The translations under genes and the position numbers were made by a program. Positions 2,861 to 63,727 of a DNA stretch of 64,000 nucleotides are shown piece after piece. The DNA lies in the NCBI GenBank assembly GCA_964016885.1, contig OZ024748.1:22444001-22508000 (forward strand), read 5' to 3'. Below the pieces are notes generated by a model. It was not told the DNA's origin. It saw nothing but the letters and a program-made list of their open reading frames with translations, and searched no databases. The stretch is from Eledone cirrhosa. Its lineage: Eukaryota. The first letter of the stretch is position 1. Every line of letters starts with the position of its first letter.

Positions 2861-3419
2861 GATTTGAAAGATAGATAGATTCTTCATATTGCTGTAAAAC
2901 TGTAAGATGTATTTTCTTTTAAACAAATAAACCAATAGTAAGAAAGGCCACGCTTGAGTTGAGGCAAATTAGAACTCTCCACAGATATACTGATAAAATC
3001 TTAACTTTAAAGATATTTACTGCCGTGAGGACCAATCATAGAGCAGCATTGAGGAAGGGGCATCACTAGTGTTGATGTGTGAGACACGCCCCACACACAC
3101 TCATACATACTCACACACATACACACACACACACACACTCATACACACACACTCATACACACACTCATACACACACACACACACACACACACTCATACAT
3201 ACTCACACACATACACACACACACACACACACTCATACACACACACACACACACTCATACACACTCATACACATACACACACACTCATGCATCCTGTTCC
3301 GCCAACGTCAACCTTAGATTCAACGGGTACAATAAGGAGAATCCTGAATGTAAGATCTTACAATGAATGACTGAAAGAAATCAACTGATTTTACACACGC
3401 ACACACACACATAAATATG

Positions 3420-3454
<35 letters not shown>

Positions 3455-3533
3455 ACTTATATACATTTGTTTTCTTTAATTGAACTACATTTTATTTTCT
3501 GTATCTATCCTTTGTGTTCATGTCTCTATTTTT

Positions 3534-3572
3534 GTACTCCTGAAGAAGGGCTAAAGCCCGAAACGTCGAACT
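3534..3572 (+). ncRNA. Minimal hammerhead ribozyme-like motif (PLE pLTR type)
   Basis: CTGAAGA-a-GGGC-taaa-GCCC-GAAAC-GTC: conserved core, 4-bp stem II, minimal palindromic (ACGT) stem III and a GUC site. Stem I is only partly paired. Confidence 0.65.
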
Positions 3573-4094: not shown

Positions 4095-4225
4095 GATAAA
4101 TCTACCAAGAGTTTACGGTAGTGTCCAATCCGTATGAAGAACTCAATGTATTCCGGATATCATGGAAAGAAGAGATGTAATGAAAATCCACTTTCGGTGA
4201 AAGATAAACGGTATACAGAGTCAAG

Positions 4226-4319
4226 ATAAAATATTAAACAAATAATGAACAAACAATTCCTTATATTAAACAAAAAAAGTTCACTTAATATAAGGAATTG
4301 TTTGTTCATTATTTGTTTA

Positions 4320-4328
<9 letters not shown>
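4226..4328. repeat. Fold-back palindrome, 44-bp arms, at the end of a (TA)n-flanked insert (about 4091-4328)
   Basis: ataaaatattaaacaaataatgaacaaacaattccttatattaa is mirrored by ttaatataaggaattgtttgttcattatttgtttaatattttat. Confidence 0.9.
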
Positions 4329-4353
<25 letters not shown>

Positions 4354-4536
4354 ACGAAGGAAATGTGGTAAGGAACCAGGTGGACCATAACGCACCAAAG
4401 TACTCAATACTTGAGGTAGTAGAGTGGGTAATAGGAACCAGTAAGACCCCGACGGCTGAGCTCAAGCCGTTTCGACGGCTAATTCAGAATTAGCCATCGA
4501 AACGGCTTGAGCTCAGCTGTCGGGGTCTTACTGGTT

Positions 4537-4540
<4 letters not shown>
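4354..4540 (-). mobile_element. Family A (TA)n-inserted fold-back element carrying the 3' half of a hammerhead
   Basis: Arms taggaaccagtaagaccccgacggctgagctcaagccgtttcga / tcgaaacggcttgagctcagctgtcggggtcttactggttccta. The motif is GAAAC-GGCT-tgagctc-AGCC-GTC. (TA)n lies on both sides. Confidence 0.8.
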
Positions 4541-4588
<48 letters not shown>

Positions 4589-6830: not shown

Positions 6831-6896
<66 letters not shown>

Positions 6897-6899
<3 letters not shown>

Positions 6900-7080
6900 T
6901 TAATATAGATGAGATTCTACAGGACTAGAACTGTTTCATTCTTTAGAAATCATCAGATGATTTCTAAAGAATGAAACAGTTCTAGTCCTGTAGAATCTCA
7001 TCTATATTAAAACTTTTATACTCTGCAATGTATTGAGTACCTTACTTACTGTGGTTACCTCCGATTCAACCCGGAATAAC
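6897..7080 (+). mobile_element. Family B (TA)n-inserted fold-back element with hammerhead core
   Basis: Perfect palindrome 6897-7013 centred on tcatc-a-gatga. The minus strand reads CTGATGA-tttct-aa-agaat-GAAAC-AG-ttctagtc-CT-GTA-gaatc. The unique tail runs gtattgagtac...tccgattcaacccgga. Confidence 0.8.
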
Positions 7081-7203: not shown

Positions 7204-7289
<86 letters not shown>

Positions 7290-7418
7290 GCTGTCGAAAC
7301 GGCCGAAGCTCTGGCGTCGAGGTCCTGACTCCTTTTATATTGCCCACTCTACTACCCTAAGTATTGAGTACTCTGGTGCGTTATAGTCCACCTGGTATCT
7401 TACCACACCCTCTTTGTT
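7290..7418 (+). mobile_element. Diverged family A fragment
   Basis: gtcgaaacggccgaagctctggcgtc...cccactctactaccctaagtattgagtactctggtgcgttatagtccacctgg, lying between TA runs. Confidence 0.75.
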
Positions 7419-7441
7419 ATATATATATATATATATGTGTG

Positions 7442-11260: not shown

Positions 11261-11774
11261 AAGGCGTCTGTGTACAATTATATTACCTGCTTGTGTATAT
11301 GTGATGTAGCTGTGAAGTTCTTTCACTGTAAAGATAAAGATTTCTTAAATATGGATTATTTAGGAAAAGAGCTCAAACATTCCGGGCTGTATTACAAACA
11401 AGATTTATTAAAAGATGTAGCATAAAAAACTATTTTCCTTCATTTCTCTCATCCCTATTGTTATATATATATAAATGACAGAGTCAAGACCCCAACAGCT
11501 GAGCTCTTGCCTTTTCAACAGCTAGTTCCAAACGCATCCATTTTGATATATATATATATATATATAAGAATAACATTAAGAAAAATGCTGATGTTACATA
11601 AATCGTTTATTCATTAAAATTATTTCAACAGTTCCCTTATGCAATCCATGATGTAACGTATGCATTTGTTGTTGTTATGGGAACAGTATCTTGAGATGAA
11701 TCCGATTTTGTGACATGCCGCAGGCAAAAAACACGTCCTTCTTCTCGTGTGCCTAGCTGACATATGAGTGTTCA

Positions 11775-12867: not shown

Positions 12868-12879
12868 ATATATGAATTT

Positions 12880-13231
12880 AATATTGAAATTGCTTCTACA
12901 GGACTAGATGATTTCGAATGAAACAGTTCTAGTCCTGTAGAAGCCATTTCTATATTACATTTTGTATATATTCTACTAATGTATTGAGTACCTTCCTTAT
13001 TGCGGTTACTCCCGGTTGAGCTCGGGACCCATATATATATGTATATAACATAGAAATAGCTTCTACAGGACTAGAATTGTTTCATTCGAAGGAAATCATC
13101 AGGAAATCAGTAGGGGTTTTTCTGATGATTTCCTTCCTGTAGAAGCCATTTGTATATTAAATATTTAAAACTCTGCTATGTATTCAGTACGTAACTTACT
13201 GTGGTTAACCCCGATCGAACCCGGGATAAAC
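12880..13231 (+). mobile_element. Two adjacent family B fold-back elements
   Basis: 12880-13030 and 13048-13231 each contain cttctacaggactag...ctgtagaag arms. The second has ggttttt-CTGATGA-tttccttc. Both have gtatt(g/c)agtac tails ending in cccg..cggg. Confidence 0.8.
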
Positions 13232-16984: not shown

Positions 16985-17287
16985 AAATGGCGTAGGACAG
17001 AACAAAGGAGAGGCACAGAAACAAAGAAAGGAATCCCCAGTTACTGAAGAGGTCACAGAGTGTGTGACGAAAGAACTATGACTATATATAAACAACTATC
17101 AGAAATTTATAAATTTGTAAATTTATAAATTTATAAATATATAATAAATTGAAGTGAAAGCAACTGGTGCGTGTGTTTCTTATTGGCAACATGACCCTCC
17201 CAAAGTATAACAATATCGGTTTCAACACACGATTTCAGATAAAGAATATTGCTAAACAAATTCAGAAACGAAATATATATATATATA

Positions 17288-18822: not shown

Positions 18823-18830
<8 letters not shown>

Positions 18831-19167
18831 ATATAAGATCAAAAGATGGTTAAAGGAGTTCCATGTATTTTATTATGCGCATTTCAAAAACAAATATCAT
18901 CATGCAATAATATTTGTGTTTTCATCAGATAAAATAGGGAGACATGATATGAAGGTTAAAACACACTTGTGAATAGTGAGGTTTTAAATCAACATATGTT
19001 GATTTAAAACTGCACTATTCACAAGTGTTTTTTAGCCTTCATATCATGTTCTCCTGTTTTATCTGTGAAAACACAAATATTATTGCATGATGATATTTGT
19101 TTTTGAAATGCGCATAATAAAATACATGGAACTCCTTTAACCATCTTTTGATCTTATATTATGTATA
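18823..19167. mobile_element. 345-bp palindrome beside (TA)n, hammerhead-bearing
   Basis: Arms are centred on aatcaacatatgttgatt and have few mismatches. Confidence 0.9.
18868..18934 (-). ncRNA. Type I hammerhead ribozyme
   Basis: The minus strand reads TTTTAT-CTGATGA-aaacacaaatattat(tgcatg)atgatatttgttttt-GAA-ATGCGCAT-A-ATAAAA. Stem I is 6 bp, stem II is long, stem III is palindromic and the site is AUA. Confidence 0.75.
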
Positions 19168-19935: not shown

Positions 19936-19964
<29 letters not shown>

Positions 19965-19966
<2 letters not shown>

Positions 19967-20169
19967 GGAACCAGTAAGACCCCGACAGCTGAGCTCAAGC
20001 CGTTTCGACGGCTAATTCTGGACTCTAGAATTAGCCGTCGAAACGGCTTGAGCTCAGCTTGAGCTCAGCTGTCGGGGTCTTACTGGTTCCTATTACCCAC
20101 TCTACTACCCCAAGTATTGAGTACTTTGGTGCGTTATGGTCCACCTGGTTCCTTACCACATTTCCTTCG

Positions 20170-20170
<1 letters not shown>
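19965..20170 (+). mobile_element. Family A fold-back element
   Basis: Arms surround gctaattc-tggactcta-gaattagc. One arm has a duplicated gcttgagctca. (TA)n lies on both sides. Confidence 0.85.
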
Positions 20171-20203
<33 letters not shown>

Positions 20204-39946: not shown

Positions 39947-40553
39947 GTGGAGGCATGTGGCCTAGTGGTAAGGGTGTTCGGCTTACGATCATAATGACGT
40001 GGGTTCGATTCTGTGTTGTGTTCTTGAGCAAAACACTTCATTTCACGTTGTTCCAGTATACTCAACTGAAAATGAGTACCAGCAATACCCGTGGGTTTAA
40101 CCCTGCGATGTACTAGCGTCATGTACAGGGGAGAGTCTTATATTCGGCGGGATTTGAGTTTAACTTTGCCTTTTTCATTCTTACGGAATCGATAAAATAA
40201 AGTACCAGTAATGCACTGGGATAATTGCTGGCCTTGTGCCAAAAGTAGAAACAATTATATTATATGTCTAAAAGTCTGAAGTCTGTCTTAAGCCATTTAA
40301 GCTCATGTGGTCGGTGCTTATCTCGGTTTTATGGCGTGAAGTGACTGAGAGTACAATACTCCCCCTTGTACAGGACGCCAGTACATCGCAGGGTTAAACC
40401 CACAGCTATTGCTGGTACTCATTTTCAGCTGAGTATACTGGAACAACGTGAAATGAAGTGTTTTGCTCAAGAACACAACACGCAACCCAGGAACCGAACC
40501 CACGACATTATGATCGTAAGTCCAACACCCTTACCATTAGGCCACGTGCCTCC
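39947..40553. mobile_element. Inverted pair of SINE family 2 copies (39947-40142 +, 40310-40553 -) enclosing a SINE-1 3' fragment (40145-40260)
   Basis: tggaggcatgtggcctagtggtaagggtgtt... is mirrored by ...aacacccttaccattaggccacgtgcctcca. Confidence 0.85.
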
Positions 40554-42886: not shown

Positions 42887-42947
42887 AAAAAAAAATATAT
42901 ATATATATATATATAGTAATAATAATAATTATGAAGACCAAAATATT

Positions 42948-43082
42948 TATTATTAGAACAGATTAAAATTTAAGCAAAGAATCGTTGCTTTCACCCTATT
43001 ACGGGATCTTCTGAAAACCAGAAGATCCCGTAATAAGGTGAAAGCAGCGATTCTTGGTTTAAACTTTAATTTGTACTAATAA
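42948..43082. mobile_element. Fold-back palindrome with hammerhead-like core
   Basis: Centre ctg-aaaac-cag. The minus strand reads CAGAAGA-tCCC-gtaata-GGGt-GAA-AGCAA-cgattct-TTGCT-ta. Confidence 0.7.
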
Positions 43083-43083
43083 C

Positions 43084-43170
<87 letters not shown>

Positions 43171-45083: not shown

Positions 45084-45122
<39 letters not shown>

Positions 45123-45242
45123 TATAGACATAGAATATTCGAAAATATTCTGTATGTTTATAATAAACATTTTGAAGACCTAATCGCTATAGAATAGAAT
45201 ACGTCACGTATTACAATTAGATTCTCGATAAAAGCAAGGGAA

Positions 45243-45285
45243 GTAATCTACGCGTTTCATTCTCGTTAGAAATCATCAGGACTAC
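45243..45285 (-). ncRNA. Type I hammerhead ribozyme (first of six minus-strand copies; others at 45553, 45863, 46173, 46483, 46793)
   Basis: The reverse complement reads GTAGTC-CTGATGA-tTTCT-aacg-AGAAt-GAAAC-GC-GTA-GATTAC. Confidence 0.85.
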
Positions 45286-46940
45286 ATATCCAGTGCTTTT
45301 ATCGAGAATGACACAGCTAGAGACTTATAGAATACTTAGCTGTGTACAGGAACTGGTTTGAAAGAGCGGTTGCCGGTCCGGCAGAAATTAGAAATTGGAA
45401 TAAATGCTCTGAAATAGCGATATATATGTGAATATAGACATAGAATATTCGAAAATATTCTGTATGTTTATAATAAACATTTTGAAGACCTAATCGCTAT
45501 AGAATAGAATACGTCACGTATTACAATTAGATTCTCGATAAAAGCAAGGGAAGTAATCTACGCGTTTCATTCTCGTTAGAAATCATCAGGACTACATATC
45601 CAGTGCTTTTATCGAGAATGACACAGCTAGAGACTTATAGAATACTTAGCTGTGTACAGGAACTGGTTTGAAAGAGCGGTTGCCGGTCCGGCAGAAATTA
45701 GAAATTGGAATAAATGCTCTGAAATAGCGATATATATGTGAATATAGACATAGAATATTCGAAAATATTCTGTATGTTTATAATAAACATTTTGAAGACC
45801 TAATCGCTATAGAATAGAATACGTCACGTATTACAATTAGATTCTCGATAAAAGCAAGGGAAGTAATCTACGCGTTTCATTCTCGTTAGAAATCATCAGG
45901 ACTACATATCCAGTGCTTTTATCGAGAATGACACAGCTAGAGACTTATAGAATACTTAGCTGTGTACAGGAACTGGTTTGAAAGAGCGGTTGCCGGTCCG
46001 GCAGAAATTAGAAATTGGAATAAATGCTCTGAAATAGCGATATATATGTGAATATAGACATAGAATATTCGAAAATATTCTGTATGTTTATAATAAACAT
46101 TTTGAAGACCTAATCGCTATAGAATAGAATACGTCACGTATTACAATTAGATTCTCGATAAAAGCAAGGGAAGTAATCTACGCGTTTCATTCTCGTTAGA
46201 AATCATCAGGACTACATATCCAGTGCTTTTATCGAGAATGACACAGCTAGAGACTTATAGAATACTTAGCTGTGTACAGGAACTGGTTTGAAAGAGCGGT
46301 TGCCGGTCCGGCAGAAATTAGAAATTGGAATAAATGCTCTGAAATAGCGATATATATGTGAATATAGACATAGAATATTCGAAAATATTCTGTATGTTTA
46401 TAATAAACATTTTGAAGACCTAATCGCTATAGAATAGAATACGTCACGTATTACAATTAGATTCTCGATAAAAGCAAGGGAAGTAATCTACGCGTTTCAT
46501 TCTCGTTAGAAATCATCAGGACTACATATCCAGTGCTTTTATCGAGAATGACACAGCTAGAGACTTATAGAATACTTAGCTGTGTACAGGAACTGGTTTG
46601 AAAGAGCGGTTGCCGGTCCGGCAGAAATTAGAAATTGGAATAAATGCTCTGAAATAGCGATATATATGTGAATATAGACATAGAATATTCGAAAATATTC
46701 TGTATGTTTATAATAAACATTTTGAAGACCTAATCGCTATAGAATAGAATACGTCACGTATTACAATTAGATTCTCGATAAAAGCAAGGGAAGTAATCTA
46801 CGCGTTTCATTCTCGTTAGAAATCATCAGGACTACATATCCAGTGCTTTTATCGAGAATGACACTCAAACCAGTTCCTGTACACAGCTAAGTATTCTATA
46901 AGTCTCTAGCTGTGTCATTCTCGATAAAAGCACTGGATAT

Positions 46941-46983
46941 GTAGTCCTGATGATTTCTAACGAGAATGAAACGCGTAGATTAC
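46941..46983 (+). ncRNA. Type I hammerhead ribozyme (first of four plus-strand copies; others at 47251, 47561, 47871)
   Basis: Stem I is GTAGTC/GATTAC, extended past an internal loop by the perfect 16-bp helix attctcgataaaagca/tgcttttatcgagaat. It has CTGATGA and GAAA cores, stem II TTCT/AGAA and palindromic stem III ACGCGT. Predicted cleavage is after the GUA ending at 46977. Confidence 0.87.
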
Positions 46984-48070
46984 TTCCCTTGCTTTTATCG
47001 AGAATCTAATTGTAATACGTGACGTATTCTATTCTATAGCGATTAGGTCTTCAAAATGTTTATTATAAACATACAGAATATTTTCGAATATTCTATGTCT
47101 ATATTCACATATATATCGCTATTTCAGAGCATTTATTCCAATTTCTAATTTCTGCCGGACCGGCAACCGCTCTTTCAAACCAGTTCCTGTACACAGCTAA
47201 GTATTCTATAAGTCTCTAGCTGTGTCATTCTCGATAAAAGCACTGGATATGTAGTCCTGATGATTTCTAACGAGAATGAAACGCGTAGATTACTTCCCTT
47301 GCTTTTATCGAGAATCTAATTGTAATACGTGACGTATTCTATTCTATAGCGATTAGGTCTTCAAAATGTTTATTATAAACATACAGAATATTTTCGAATA
47401 TTCTATGTCTATATTCACATATATATCGCTATTTCAGAGCATTTATTCCAATTTCTAATTTCTGCCGGACCGGCAACCGCTCTTTCAAACCAGTTCCTGT
47501 ACACAGCTAAGTATTCTATAAGTCTCTAGCTGTGTCATTCTCGATAAAAGCACTGGATATGTAGTCCTGATGATTTCTAACGAGAATGAAACGCGTAGAT
47601 TACTTCCCTTGCTTTTATCGAGAATCTAATTGTAATACGTGACGTATTCTATTCTATAGCGATTAGGTCTTCAAAATGTTTATTATAAACATACAGAATA
47701 TTTTCGAATATTCTATGTCTATATTCACATATATATCGCTATTTCAGAGCATTTATTCCAATTTCTAATTTCTGCCGGACCGGCAACCGCTCTTTCAAAC
47801 CAGTTCCTGTACACAGCTAAGTATTCTATAAGTCTCTAGCTGTGTCATTCTCGATAAAAACACTGGATATGTAGTCCTGATGATTTCTAACGAGAATGAA
47901 ACGCGTAGATTACTTCCCTTGCTTTTATCGAGAATCTAATTGTAATACGTGACGTATTCTATTCTATAGCGATTAGGTCTTCAAAATGTTTATTATAAAC
48001 ATACAGAATATTTTCGAATATTCTATGTCTATATTCACATATATATCGCTATTTCAGAGCATTTATTCCA

Positions 48071-48592
<522 letters not shown>

Positions 48593-49359: not shown

Positions 49360-49802
49360 TATTCATTAAAACAACAACGGAAGGCCGGAATGGAAAGTTT
49401 ACTTTAGAATTTTAATTCAGTGAAAGCACTCTACATATTTCGATGTCCCAGCTCTGTCAACTGATTAATGATGCAAGACAAGGCGATCTCATCAGGCGAC
49501 ATATACAGAATTATGTAACGGGATTACGTTGAACCCAAACATAAAATGGAAGATAGGAGAAAGAGAAAAAAGTAGAAGATAGAAATTAGAAAATTCGATT
49601 CTCTTTCTCCTATCTTCCATTCTATGTTTGGATTCAGCCTAATCCTGTTACATAATTCTGCGAATAACATCTGATGAAATCGCCTAGTCTTGCATAATAA
49701 TTGGATGACAGAGCTGGGATATCGAATTATGTATAGTGCTGTCACGGAATTATAATTCTAAAGTGAATTTTCCAGCCAGGCCCTCTGTTGTTTTAATGAA
49801 TA
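49360..49802. mobile_element. Old imperfect 440-bp palindrome with a hammerhead-like core in each arm
   Basis: Ends tattcattaaaacaaca / tgttgttttaatgaata. Minus strand 49432-49495 reads CTGATGA-GAT...ATC-GAAATATGTA. The plus strand has CTGATGA at 49671. Confidence 0.75.
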
Positions 49803-51674: not shown

Positions 51675-52232
<558 letters not shown>

Positions 52233-53154: not shown

Positions 53155-53346
53155 GTTATTCCGGATTGAATCGGAGGTAACCACAGTAAGTAAGGTACAC
53201 AATGCATAGCAGAGTATAAAGGTTTTAATATAGAAGAGATTCTACAGGACTAGAACTGTTTCATTCGTGAGAAATCATCAGGATTCAGATGATTTCTCAC
53301 GATTGAAACAGTTCTAGTCCTGTAGAATCTCTTCTATATTAAAACC
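53155..53346 (-). mobile_element. Family B fold-back element
   Basis: Arms ggttttaatatagaagagattctacaggactagaactgtttca / tgaaacagttctagtcctgtagaatctcttctatattaaaacc surround tcatcaggattcagatga. Confidence 0.85.
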
Positions 53347-53370
53347 TATATATATATATGTATATATATT

Positions 53371-53443
<73 letters not shown>

Positions 53444-53445
<2 letters not shown>

Positions 53446-53630
53446 CGAAGGAAAAGTGGTAAGGAACCAGGTGGACCATAACGCACCAAAGTACTCAACA
53501 CTTAGGGTAGTAGAGTGGGTAATAGGAGTAAGTAAGACCCCGACGGCTGAGCTCAAGCCGTTTCGACGGCGAATTCCGTACAGAATTAGCTCGAAACGGC
53601 TTGAGCTCAGCCGTCGGGGTCTTACTTACT

Positions 53631-53635
<5 letters not shown>
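53444..53635 (-). mobile_element. Family A fold-back element
   Basis: Same body as 4354-4540, with arms around gaattc-cgtaca-gaatt and (TA)n on both sides. Confidence 0.85.
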
Positions 53636-56559: not shown

Positions 56560-56944
56560 CATATATATAAATTGTGTCTTCCTGTTATTTTATCTTTGTG
56601 TCCAACCTCTCTGTAAAGGTTTGTGTTTGTGTGTCTGGGTCTGTGTGAGTGTGTCTGAATGAGTAGATGTGCGTGTATGCGTGTTTATATCTGTATCTGT
56701 ATATGTCTAAGTATATGTGTGTATGTGTCTATGTGTGTATGTGTGTGTTGAATTGAAAGAAAATGAAAAATAAGTTCTTTTAATTTACGTTGCCTCACTC
56801 ATCTTTATTTACTTTTCATCAGTGGATACAGGGTGGCATTGATATATATATATATATATATACATGGAAAGTTATATTTAAATTGTTGGGTTAACAACGA
56901 GTGGTATGTCGTATCTATTTATTTATAAGACTGTTTATATTGTA

Positions 56945-57006
56945 TTTTGTCTGAAGATGGCATAACATATTGTTAATATGATATCCCTGAAATATATATA
57001 ACGAAA
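56945..57006 (+). ncRNA. Type I hammerhead ribozyme, second locus of the 52055 family
   Basis: TTTTGT-CTGAAGA-tggcataacatatt(gtt)aatatgatatccct-GAA-ATATATAT-A-ACGAAA. Relative to 52055 the core differs only at the variable N7 position, and a stem I G-U becomes G-C. Confidence 0.72.
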
Positions 57007-57045
57007 TAAATATGGTTTTATAAATATAGCTTCCATTTATTTAAT

Positions 57046-57096
<51 letters not shown>

Positions 57097-57099
<3 letters not shown>

Positions 57100-57270
57100 A
57101 ACGAGTGGGACCCGGACGGCTGAGCTCAAGCCGTTTCGACGAATTAGCCGTCGAAACGGCTTGAGCTCAGCCGTCGGGTCCCACTCGTTCCTATTACCCA
57201 CTCTACTACCCTAAGTATTGAGTACTTTCGTGCGTTATGGTCCACCTGGTTCCTTACCACATTTCCTTCG

Positions 57271-57272
<2 letters not shown>
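57097..57272 (+). mobile_element. Family A fold-back element
   Basis: Arms ggaacgagtgggaccc..gacggctgagctcaagccgtttcgac / gtcgaaacggcttgagctcagccgtcgggtcccactcgttcc. Confidence 0.85.
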
Positions 57273-57338
<66 letters not shown>

Positions 57339-63135: not shown

Positions 63136-63727
63136 TAATAATTGTTTCTACTTTTGGCACAAACCCAGTAATTATCCCAGTGTATTACTGGTACTTTATT
63201 TTATCGGCCCCGTAAGGATGAAAGGCAAAGTTAACCTCGGCGGGATTTGAACTCAAACCATATCCCGCCGAGGTTAACTTTGCCTTTCATCCTTACGGGG
63301 CCGATAAAATAAAGTACCAGTAATACACTGGTTACAATCCACTAATAATTGTTTCTACTTTTGGCACAAGGCAAGCAATTACCCAGTACATTACTGGTAC
63401 TTTATTTTATCGGCCCCGTAAGGATGAAAGGCAAAGTTAACCTCGGCGGGATTTGAACTCAAACCATATCCCGCCGAGGTTAACTTTGCCTTTCATCCTT
63501 ACGGGGCCGATAAAATAAAGTACCAGTAATACACTGGATACAATCCACTAATAATTGTTTCTACTTTTGGCACAAGGCCAGCAATTACCCAGTACATTAC
63601 AGGTACTTTATTTTATGGACCCGGTAAGGATGAAAGGCAAAGTCAACCTCGGCGGGATTTGAACTCAGATCATAAAGGGACGTAACTATGCTAGAAAGCA
63701 TGGCCGACCCTCTACCGATACTGCCAC
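63136..63727 (-). mobile_element. SINE family 1 with two tandem fold-back units (about 206-bp period)
   Basis: Units start at 63136, 63343 and 63549. The first two contain inverted arms of about 70 bp around ttgaactcaaaccat. Confidence 0.9.

What the first reader, a model, noticed from the sequence alone, without database searches (positions are those of the whole stretch)
4354..4540. Family A: arms appear to be made anew at each insertion, folding back just 5' of the GAAAC core
Seen in four copies (4354, 19965, 53444, 57097): copy-specific variants occur in both arms of the same copy (gaaccagtaagacccc; gagtaagtaagacccc; gaacgagtgggaccc), while the spacer differs each time (a; tggactcta; cgtaca; asymmetric junction at 57097). 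The turn is always at gaattagc, just before GAAAC-GGCT-tgagctc-AGCC-GTC (stem III plus a GUC site). The short arm always stops at about c(c/t)TA and merges into (TA)n. No copy retains CTGANGA. Inference: RT stalls in the ribozyme stem II, the cDNA snaps back and self-primes, and it is then joined to the target by TA microhomology.
Basis: partly seen in the sequence, partly recalled or inferred. Interest (0 to 1): 0.72.

Follow-up and report, generated by a model that had tools for sequence, protein, structure and literature searches.

The report
Twin-primed Penelope retroelement mini-hairpins
These small lopsided hairpins are stubs of an intact Penelope-like jumping gene, a layout already known for this class; their two arms were likely copied separately from one RNA onto the two cut DNA ends, not by the copy folding back on itself as first proposed.

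Summary
The four hairpins are real. They are 5'-truncated insertions of a Penelope-like element (3,542-bp unit; 717-aa telomerase-like RT with GIY-YIG; Hydra-clade motifs): an inverted pLTR end plus a one-sided 79-nt tail in (TA)n, a published layout. Arms are made at insertion from one template: subfamily variants are in both arms 270 times and in one arm 12 times; rare variants 1 versus 72. Self-priming is not supported as the source of the short arm. Only 15 of 87 copies have snap-back geometry, and in long copies each arm holds sequence the other lacks. The short arm starts at one fixed site (80 of 87). Best reading: both target ends prime cDNA at two start sites 79 nt apart, and the cDNA ends are then joined. 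The turn is most likely the RNA's capped 5' end inside hammerhead loop II (extra G in 48 of 100 versus 16 of 100 one base on), which explains the missing core. Parents carry a full hammerhead with a U3-A8 core (TTGANAA), not CTGANGA. No RNA start was mapped. The scan noted similar twin-primed Penelope palindromes before, here and in other genomes.

The parts
4352..4430 (-). copy 1: 79-nt tail (unit 3464-3542), outer end at the tailed start site, merging into (TA)n
4431..4485 (-). copy 1: tailed arm, pLTR part (unit 3409-3463): 3' strand of stem II, GAAAC, stem III, GUC, 3' strand of stem I
4485..4541 (+). copy 1: tail-less arm (unit 3407-3463); 1-nt overlap at the junction; reaches 2 nt further 5' than the tailed arm; differs from it at 2 sites
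4326..4353 (.). copy 1: left (TA)n target run
4539..4583 (.). copy 1: right (TA)n target run
19964..20024 (-). copy 2: tail-less arm (unit 3403-3463), ends exactly at the inferred RNA start and is followed by an extra G in element sense
20027..20093 (+). copy 2: tailed arm, pLTR part (unit 3408-3463) with an 11-nt duplication in stem III found in this arm only; 2-nt insert at 20025-20026
20094..20172 (+). copy 2: 79-nt tail
53443..53521 (-). copy 3: 79-nt tail
53522..53576 (-). copy 3: tailed arm, pLTR part (about unit 3409-3463)
53578..53635 (+). copy 3: tail-less arm (from unit 3404), with a small deletion in stem II
57095..57141 (-). copy 4: tail-less arm (unit 3417-3463); 1-nt overlap; the one window copy whose geometry allows snap-back
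57141..57194 (+). copy 4: tailed arm, pLTR part (unit 3409-3463)
57195..57273 (+). copy 4: 79-nt tail
7288..7421 (+). older relative (82% identity): tailed arm only, no inverted arm
11486..11528 (-). older relative (about 80% identity): tail-less arm only

Best explanation
Family A copies are 5'-truncated insertions of an intact Penelope-like element, and their two arms are likely two separate cDNAs primed by the two cut target ends on one RNA. Shown: the parent unit, its hammerhead, the two fixed outer ends (unit 3463 and 3542, both at TAT), the shared-template pattern, and unique sequence in both arms of many copies. Inferred steps: (1) the element's protein nicks both strands of a (TA)n run; (2) one 3'-OH primes at the internal site and the other at the tail end 79 nt downstream, each with up to 3 nt of TAT pairing; (3) both cDNAs run toward the RNA's 5' end, the downstream one usually displacing the upstream one and sometimes stopping where it meets it (unit 3455-3465); (4) when the protein starts at the 5'-proximal copy of the two sites, the cDNAs run off a capped RNA end at unit 3403 (minor start 3399), inside hammerhead loop II, giving arms of at most about 61 and 140 nt that lack the catalytic core; (5) the two cDNA 3' ends are joined by short microhomology, bluntly, or through short templated inserts, and the gaps are filled.
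For: Parent: tandem 3,542-bp units with an open 717-aa frame whose upstream open stretch runs through Family A and its tail; model pLDDT 91.6, top fold matches are telomerase RTs. Two start sites: tail-less end at 3463 in 80 of 87 copies although the region has 3 TAT and 11 TA sites; 3463 also ends L125 and L128, where no inverted partner was found. Independent arms: tail-less arm further 5' in 45, equal in 17, tailed further in 25; by 10 nt or more 21 versus 5; only 15 of 87 fit snap-back. In L117-L120 the tail-less arm passes the tailed arm's inner end by about 33 nt to over 1 kb (L118 947 versus 1434; L119 16 versus 764), yet the arms differ at only 1, 8, 5 and 1 of about 1,490 sites against 9-46 between loci over the same span. 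Collision mark: 8 tailed arms stop at 3455-3470, none at 3446-3454. RNA end: 57 of 174 ends at 3403-3404 and 3 below 3399; extra G before A3403 in 48 of the first 100 genome matches versus 16 of 100 before G3404, P=1.8e-6, and 14 of 29 versus 19 of 98 in junction inserts, P=0.003; extra T before 3400 in 15 of 17, as cDNA A-tailing would give. Literature: a purified PLE protein cuts and extends both strands and starts at two sites that bound the tail (PMC11167929).
Against: No RNA 5' end was mapped: the only run on record as RNA covered 5 of 30 bins and not this region. About 11 of 29 extra Gs in the loci could come from the partner arm, and 44 of the 100 matches have C, part of it a genomic TCAGT variant. 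The Inr reading (TTAGTC, TCAGTC, TCATTT against TCAKTY) is recalled, and no clear downstream promoter element was seen. One RNA cannot be told from two transcripts of one source locus. Central deletions after insertion could lengthen either arm's apparent reach. 16 of 112 tailed ends had no short inverted arm by the script. In PMC11167929 the start site was not homologous to the cut DNA, unlike the TAT match here.
Confidence: 0.72

Rival explanations
1. One reading: one cDNA stalls in stem II, snaps back, copies itself and joins the target by TA microhomology; later central deletions blur the geometry. A self-priming model for PLE palindromes is in print (PMC3846280).
For: 15 of 87 copies have the needed geometry, including window copy 4. 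Arms share all source variants, as self-copying predicts. 18 of 22 inserts of 5 nt or more contain a 5-nt or longer match to nearby element sequence (no chance control was run), and some are plain local fold-backs. Junctions 3403/3409 with a 6-nt loop recur (4 in each direction).
Against: 72 of 87 copies do not fit; four long copies hold unique sequence in both arms; self-copying has no reason to stop at 3463 in 80 of 87; tailed arms pile up at the internal start site; ends cluster in the loop and a weak helix, not at the 3' foot of stems I, II or III.
Confidence: 0.1
2. Twin priming is right, but the 3403 boundary is not a transcription start: it is an RT pause, an RNA processing site or a splice-acceptor product (TTTTCATTTAG and TTTTCATTCAG look like 3' splice sites).
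For: The acceptor-like context is in the sequence; Penelope has an intron in this region (PMC2377424, PMC4209133); no RNA mapping was possible.
Against: Arms keep the A and G of the AG, which splicing would remove; no constant leader or exon sequence precedes the ends in 29 G cases; the extra G is specific to 3403; long copies read through the site.
Confidence: 0.13
3. The hairpin is itself the mobile unit (a MITE-like element with inherited inverted repeats), with arms kept alike by gene conversion.
For: A few junctions recur (the commonest 5 of 87); long arms could be homogenised after insertion.
Against: 74 distinct junctions in 87 copies; arms pair within copies, not left with left; rare variants are in one arm 72 times and in both once; the recurring junctions are microhomology-guided; a continuous size series leads to the full element.
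Confidence: 0.03

Closest known systems
EN+ Penelope-like insertions with inverted 5'-truncated pLTR and one-sided tail (PMC8557442, passages; Pen2a_Av in PMC3846280, passages)
   Same: Head-to-head inverted pLTR, tail on one side, partial tandems, 5' truncation, hammerhead in the pLTR, microsatellite targets.
   Different: Tail is 79 nt, not 30-40. Most copies are minimal stubs (40 of 44 in the evenly spaced sample do not reach unit 3380). PMC3846280 explains such palindromes by self-priming, which these copies do not fit.
Hydra clade of C-terminal EN+ PLEs (PMC8557442, passages)
   Same: DKT, CxCX5C linker, no CCHH, CxxC and CxH around the conserved E and N, RWK in homologs, (TA)n targets.
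   Different: Unit is 3.5 kb (Hydra generally under 3 kb); this protein has RWR; hammerhead core is the U3-A8 variant, not canonical. No tree with named Hydra references was built.
Poseidon of Anolis (PAc) in vitro (PMC11167929, main text)
   Same: Two RT start sites bounding the tail; cleavage and extension of both strands; AT-rich targets.
   Different: That paper does not derive inverted arms from two-ended priming; its start site lacks target homology, whereas both sites here match TAT.
L1 twin priming (recalled; PMC2837659 seen in a search listing only)
   Same: Both target ends prime on one RNA; inverted 5' part; microhomology join.
   Different: In L1 the internal site is a chance match and arms usually abut; here the internal site is fixed and arms usually overlap, giving an inverted duplication.
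U3-A8 hammerheads of Cercyon PLEs (PMC4209133, first quarter)
   Same: U3-A8 in place of C3-G8, palindromic loop III (TGAGCTCA).
   Different: Stem III here can form 5-6 bp and loop II is about 40 nt, holding the inferred transcription start.

Membership tests
EN+ Penelope-like element | single ORF with telomerase-like RT and C-terminal GIY-YIG endonuclease | tested here: met
   717-aa frame; RT and VIY/YIG motifs conserved in 86 aligned proteins; fold matches TERT first. Pfam and PDB sequence searches gave nothing; the EN was read from motifs, not from a separate fold search.
EN+ Penelope-like element | partial tandems, inverted 5'-truncated copy, one-sided tail | tested here: met
EN+ Penelope-like element | hammerhead motif in the pLTR | tested here: met
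   three-way junction in the MFE fold, z -0.09; 5,686 exact core matches, first 100: 76 TTGANAA, 24 CTGANAA, 0 CTGANGA, all four bases at N7
EN+ Penelope-like element | target-site duplication | not testable with these tools
   cannot be read inside (TA)n runs without empty alleles
Hydra clade | DKT, RWK, CxCX5C linker, CCHH absent, CxxC and CxH, (TA)n targets | tested here: met
   DKT, C572-x-C574-x5-C580, one unconserved Cys between VIY and YIG, C670xxC673, C698xH700; RWR here, K in 70% of homologs
Hydra clade | phylogenetic placement with named Hydra elements | not tested
   no named reference sequences were in hand
Active hammerhead ribozyme | self-cleavage after GUC | not testable with these tools
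   indirect only: both arms of L086 and L258 and one arm of L099 end at unit 3443/3444, the predicted cut
MITE / TIR element | inherited terminal inverted repeats and fixed internal sequence | tested here: not met
   74 junctions in 87 copies; arms cluster within copies
Self-primed (snap-back) insertion | short arm is a sub-sequence of the long arm, offset by a loop | tested here: not met
   15 of 87 fit; L117-L120 have unique sequence in both arms

The most novel reading that the evidence does not exclude
Penelope-like elements integrate by programmed twin priming: a dimeric RT-endonuclease starts two cDNAs on one capped RNA at two fixed sites, and this element's promoter starts inside its own hammerhead, so the 5' copy of the ribozyme is born without its core while the 3' copy is whole. 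Starting at the 5' copy of the sites leaves on the order of 100,000 dead mini-hairpins that record the RNA start, the cap and both initiation sites.
Probability: 0.5. Interest if true: 0.65.

Novelty: new member of a known kind. Interest (0 to 1): 0.45.

Why it matters
How Penelope-like elements make their inverted, tailed insertions is called undefined in PMC8557442, and the published sequence-based proposal is self-priming (PMC3846280). This family gives counts that tell self-priming from two-ended priming and names exact sites to test in vitro: two starts 79 nt apart and a likely capped 5' end inside the ribozyme. It also warns annotators that these stubs, about 40 per Mb here, look like MITEs or microRNA hairpins but are retrotransposon by-products. 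The layout itself is known, and this scan has met it several times.

Tried and rejected
Rfam: the 150 listed of 344 matches were nearly all microsatellite-driven miRNA hits below threshold, none a hammerhead; 194 lower matches were not shown. Pfam on the element protein and three homologs, and PDB sequence searches, gave nothing useful. A DNA search with copy 1's tail found no candidates because the words are too common; an exact pattern gave 4,279 matches. Sequencing runs: all contigs; the one RNA run did not cover the region, and two runs of unrecorded kind show a roughly tenfold or greater depth step over unit about 3390-3542 and (AT)n loose ends at both start sites, which agrees with the copy structure but says nothing on transcription. 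The hairpin junctions were not checked in reads. Spliced-leader idea: no constant sequence before the ends. Most ends at 3438-3441 look like deletions between the two GCCGTC repeats and were not counted as ribozyme cuts. Literature for two-ended priming in PLEs: searches found none stating it (two unrelated papers by abstract, none); the library lacks most subscription papers, and no supplements were read.

Full report
Observation. Each has a long arm of about 134 nt and a short arm of 47-61 nt that ends at CCTAT. Two older relatives at 7288 and 11486 have one arm only. The host genome has 3.0 Gb; that it is a cephalopod is my untested guess. In 100 evenly spaced or neighbouring 10-kb stretches (999 kb) there were 44 insertions, 21 of them at 88% identity or more and 4 reaching upstream of unit 3380; without the 6 stretches beside the window, 38 in 939 kb. 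That extrapolates to about 120,000 insertions.

Parent. Unfolded relatives led to an endonuclease fragment and then to tandem 3,542-bp units with open frames. The protein is 717 aa from the first Met. Its model is confident (pLDDT 91.6) and matches telomerase RTs best. Motifs conserved across 86 aligned proteins match the Hydra clade as described in PMC8557442 (passages). Family A is unit 3403-3542: the 3' half of the pLTR hammerhead plus a 79-nt tail that, in tandems, runs on into the next unit. The inverted, tailed layout is published (PMC8557442; PMC3846280).

Ribozyme. The parent folds into a hammerhead three-way junction, though no more stably than shuffles. A degenerate core pattern has 5,686 exact matches; of the first 100, 76 read TTGANAA, 24 CTGANAA and none CTGANGA, with all four bases at N7. 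U3-A8 is a known PLE variant (PMC4209133, first quarter read). Both arms of L086 and L258 end at the predicted cut, a hint of cleavage.

Are arms made at insertion? I parsed 112 tailed ends chosen without regard to their 5' side (window, spaced stretches, tail-selected loci; 90% identity or more; duplicates and one double parse dropped): 87 had a short inverted arm, 9 were long, 16 had none found. Across all 131 inverted copies, arms of one copy differ at 81 of 5,398 sites (1.5%) against 6.9% for shuffled pairs (lowest of 1,000 shuffles 5.8%). Variants seen in 5 or more copies are in both arms 270 times and in one arm 12 times; rarer variants are in both once and in one arm 72 times. There are 74 distinct junctions in 87 copies. 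Arms therefore come from one template at insertion and then age apart. Inherited repeats and gene conversion are rejected for the short copies.

Is the short arm a self-copy? Snap-back needs the tailed arm to reach at least a loop further 5'. Only 15 of 87 copies do. The tail-less arm reaches further in 45, including window copies 1-3, and by 10 nt or more in 21 against 5. Among 21 long loci picked from the protein and DNA hits, L117-L120 have tail-less arms that pass the tailed arm's inner end, while L115, L116 and L130 go the other way. In L117-L120 each arm holds sequence the other lacks, yet the arms are each other's nearest relatives (1-8 differences in about 1,490 sites against 9-46 between loci; conversion could add to this in long arms). 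The tail-less end is at unit 3463 in 80 of 87 copies though other TAT and TA sites are near, and it also ends L125 and L128 with no inverted partner found. Eight tailed arms stop at 3455-3470 and none at 3446-3454, as expected if one cDNA meets a primer bound at 3463; in L249 the tailed arm starts at 3455 beside inverted sequence from about 600 nt upstream. This fits the in vitro finding that a PLE protein cuts and extends both strands and starts at two sites bounding the tail (PMC11167929, main text read). Later central deletion is the remaining escape for snap-back and is not excluded copy by copy.

Why the turn is where it is. Of 174 arm ends, 57 are at 3403-3404, 51 at 3405-3410, 19 at 3399-3402 and 3 further up. 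Genome-wide, 6,308 matches have a base other than the usual T before A3403, 4,466 depart before G3404 and 1,560 before A3399; part of these are natural variants of long copies. The base before A3403 is G 48, C 44, A 8 in the first 100, against G 16, C 49, T 35 before G3404 (P=1.8e-6). An extra G is what copying a cap gives (recalled), and the context resembles an initiator (recalled consensus TCAKTY). Penelope of Drosophila has an internal Inr/DPE promoter in this region (PMC2377424, passages and one section). A transcript starting here lacks the core about 40 nt upstream, which explains why no stub has it. Against: some Gs may come from the partner arm, part of the Cs are a genomic variant, and no RNA evidence was obtained. 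A stall in stem II fits poorly, because ends are not at the 3' foot of any stem.

Joining. Junctions show microhomology in 26, blunt joins in 18 and inserts in 43 of 87.

Comparison and novelty. The family works like L1 twin priming with a fixed internal site and overlapping arms, and is a member of the EN+ PLEs by every feature I could test. The layout is known. I found no paper deriving it from two-ended priming (open library only). Earlier notes of this scan reached the same reading on other DNA; I had formed mine before reading them and treat them as unchecked. What this locus adds is the count-based rejection of self-priming and the likely capped start inside the ribozyme. Also read: bioRxiv 10.64898/2026.07.22.740005 (first fifth) and PMC13282606 (passages); neither part read addresses these hairpins. 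Verdict: new member of a known kind, interest 0.45.

Noticed in passing
window 45110-48077: Array of 310-bp units, each with a CTGATGA...GAAAC hammerhead: six on the minus strand, four on the plus strand, head to head, between (TA)n runs. Looks like a retrozyme multimer inserted with the same two-armed layout.
   Followed up: partly
window 6890-7020, 12875-13136, 53215-53352: A second fold-back family with a canonical core (CTGATGA...GAAAC, GUA site) whose turn lies at the core itself, not 3' of it; probably another PLE with a different RNA start.
   Followed up: no
window 51793-52157, 56840-57050, 4224-4330: A third (TA)n-bound family with CTGAGGA/CTGAAGA...GAAA; 182-nt arms at 51793-52157.
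   Followed up: no
window 3540-3563 and 17044-17071: Minimal hammerhead-like motifs (CTGAAGA...CGAAA) of other families.
   Followed up: no
L113 (G000:C1:91473000-91482900): At least three near-identical tandem full units with open frames; protein hits at the same 3,542-bp spacing suggest five. A likely source locus.
   Followed up: partly
L117:3506 and L127:6247: Two long tail-less arms end at the same place, unit about 3268, at a pyrimidine tract followed by CAG; possibly another RNA end or splice site.
   Followed up: no
L005, L322, L126:1361: Copies whose second arm starts at the tail end or at unit 3479 instead of 3463, or whose arms do not overlap: variant use of start sites.
   Followed up: partly
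L007, L008, L117:7093: Tail-less arms with clean deletions of stem III between short direct repeats, absent from the partner arm; fits separate copying of each arm.
   Followed up: partly
G000: 24 of 100 parents have C3-A8, an unpaired core, in whole subfamilies that still spread; cleavage may be dispensable for insertion, as PMC11167929 found in vitro.
   Followed up: no
window 63177-63661, 40013-40481, 18823-19167, 49391-49774, 42941-43091: Further long local inverted repeats from other repeat families.
   Followed up: no
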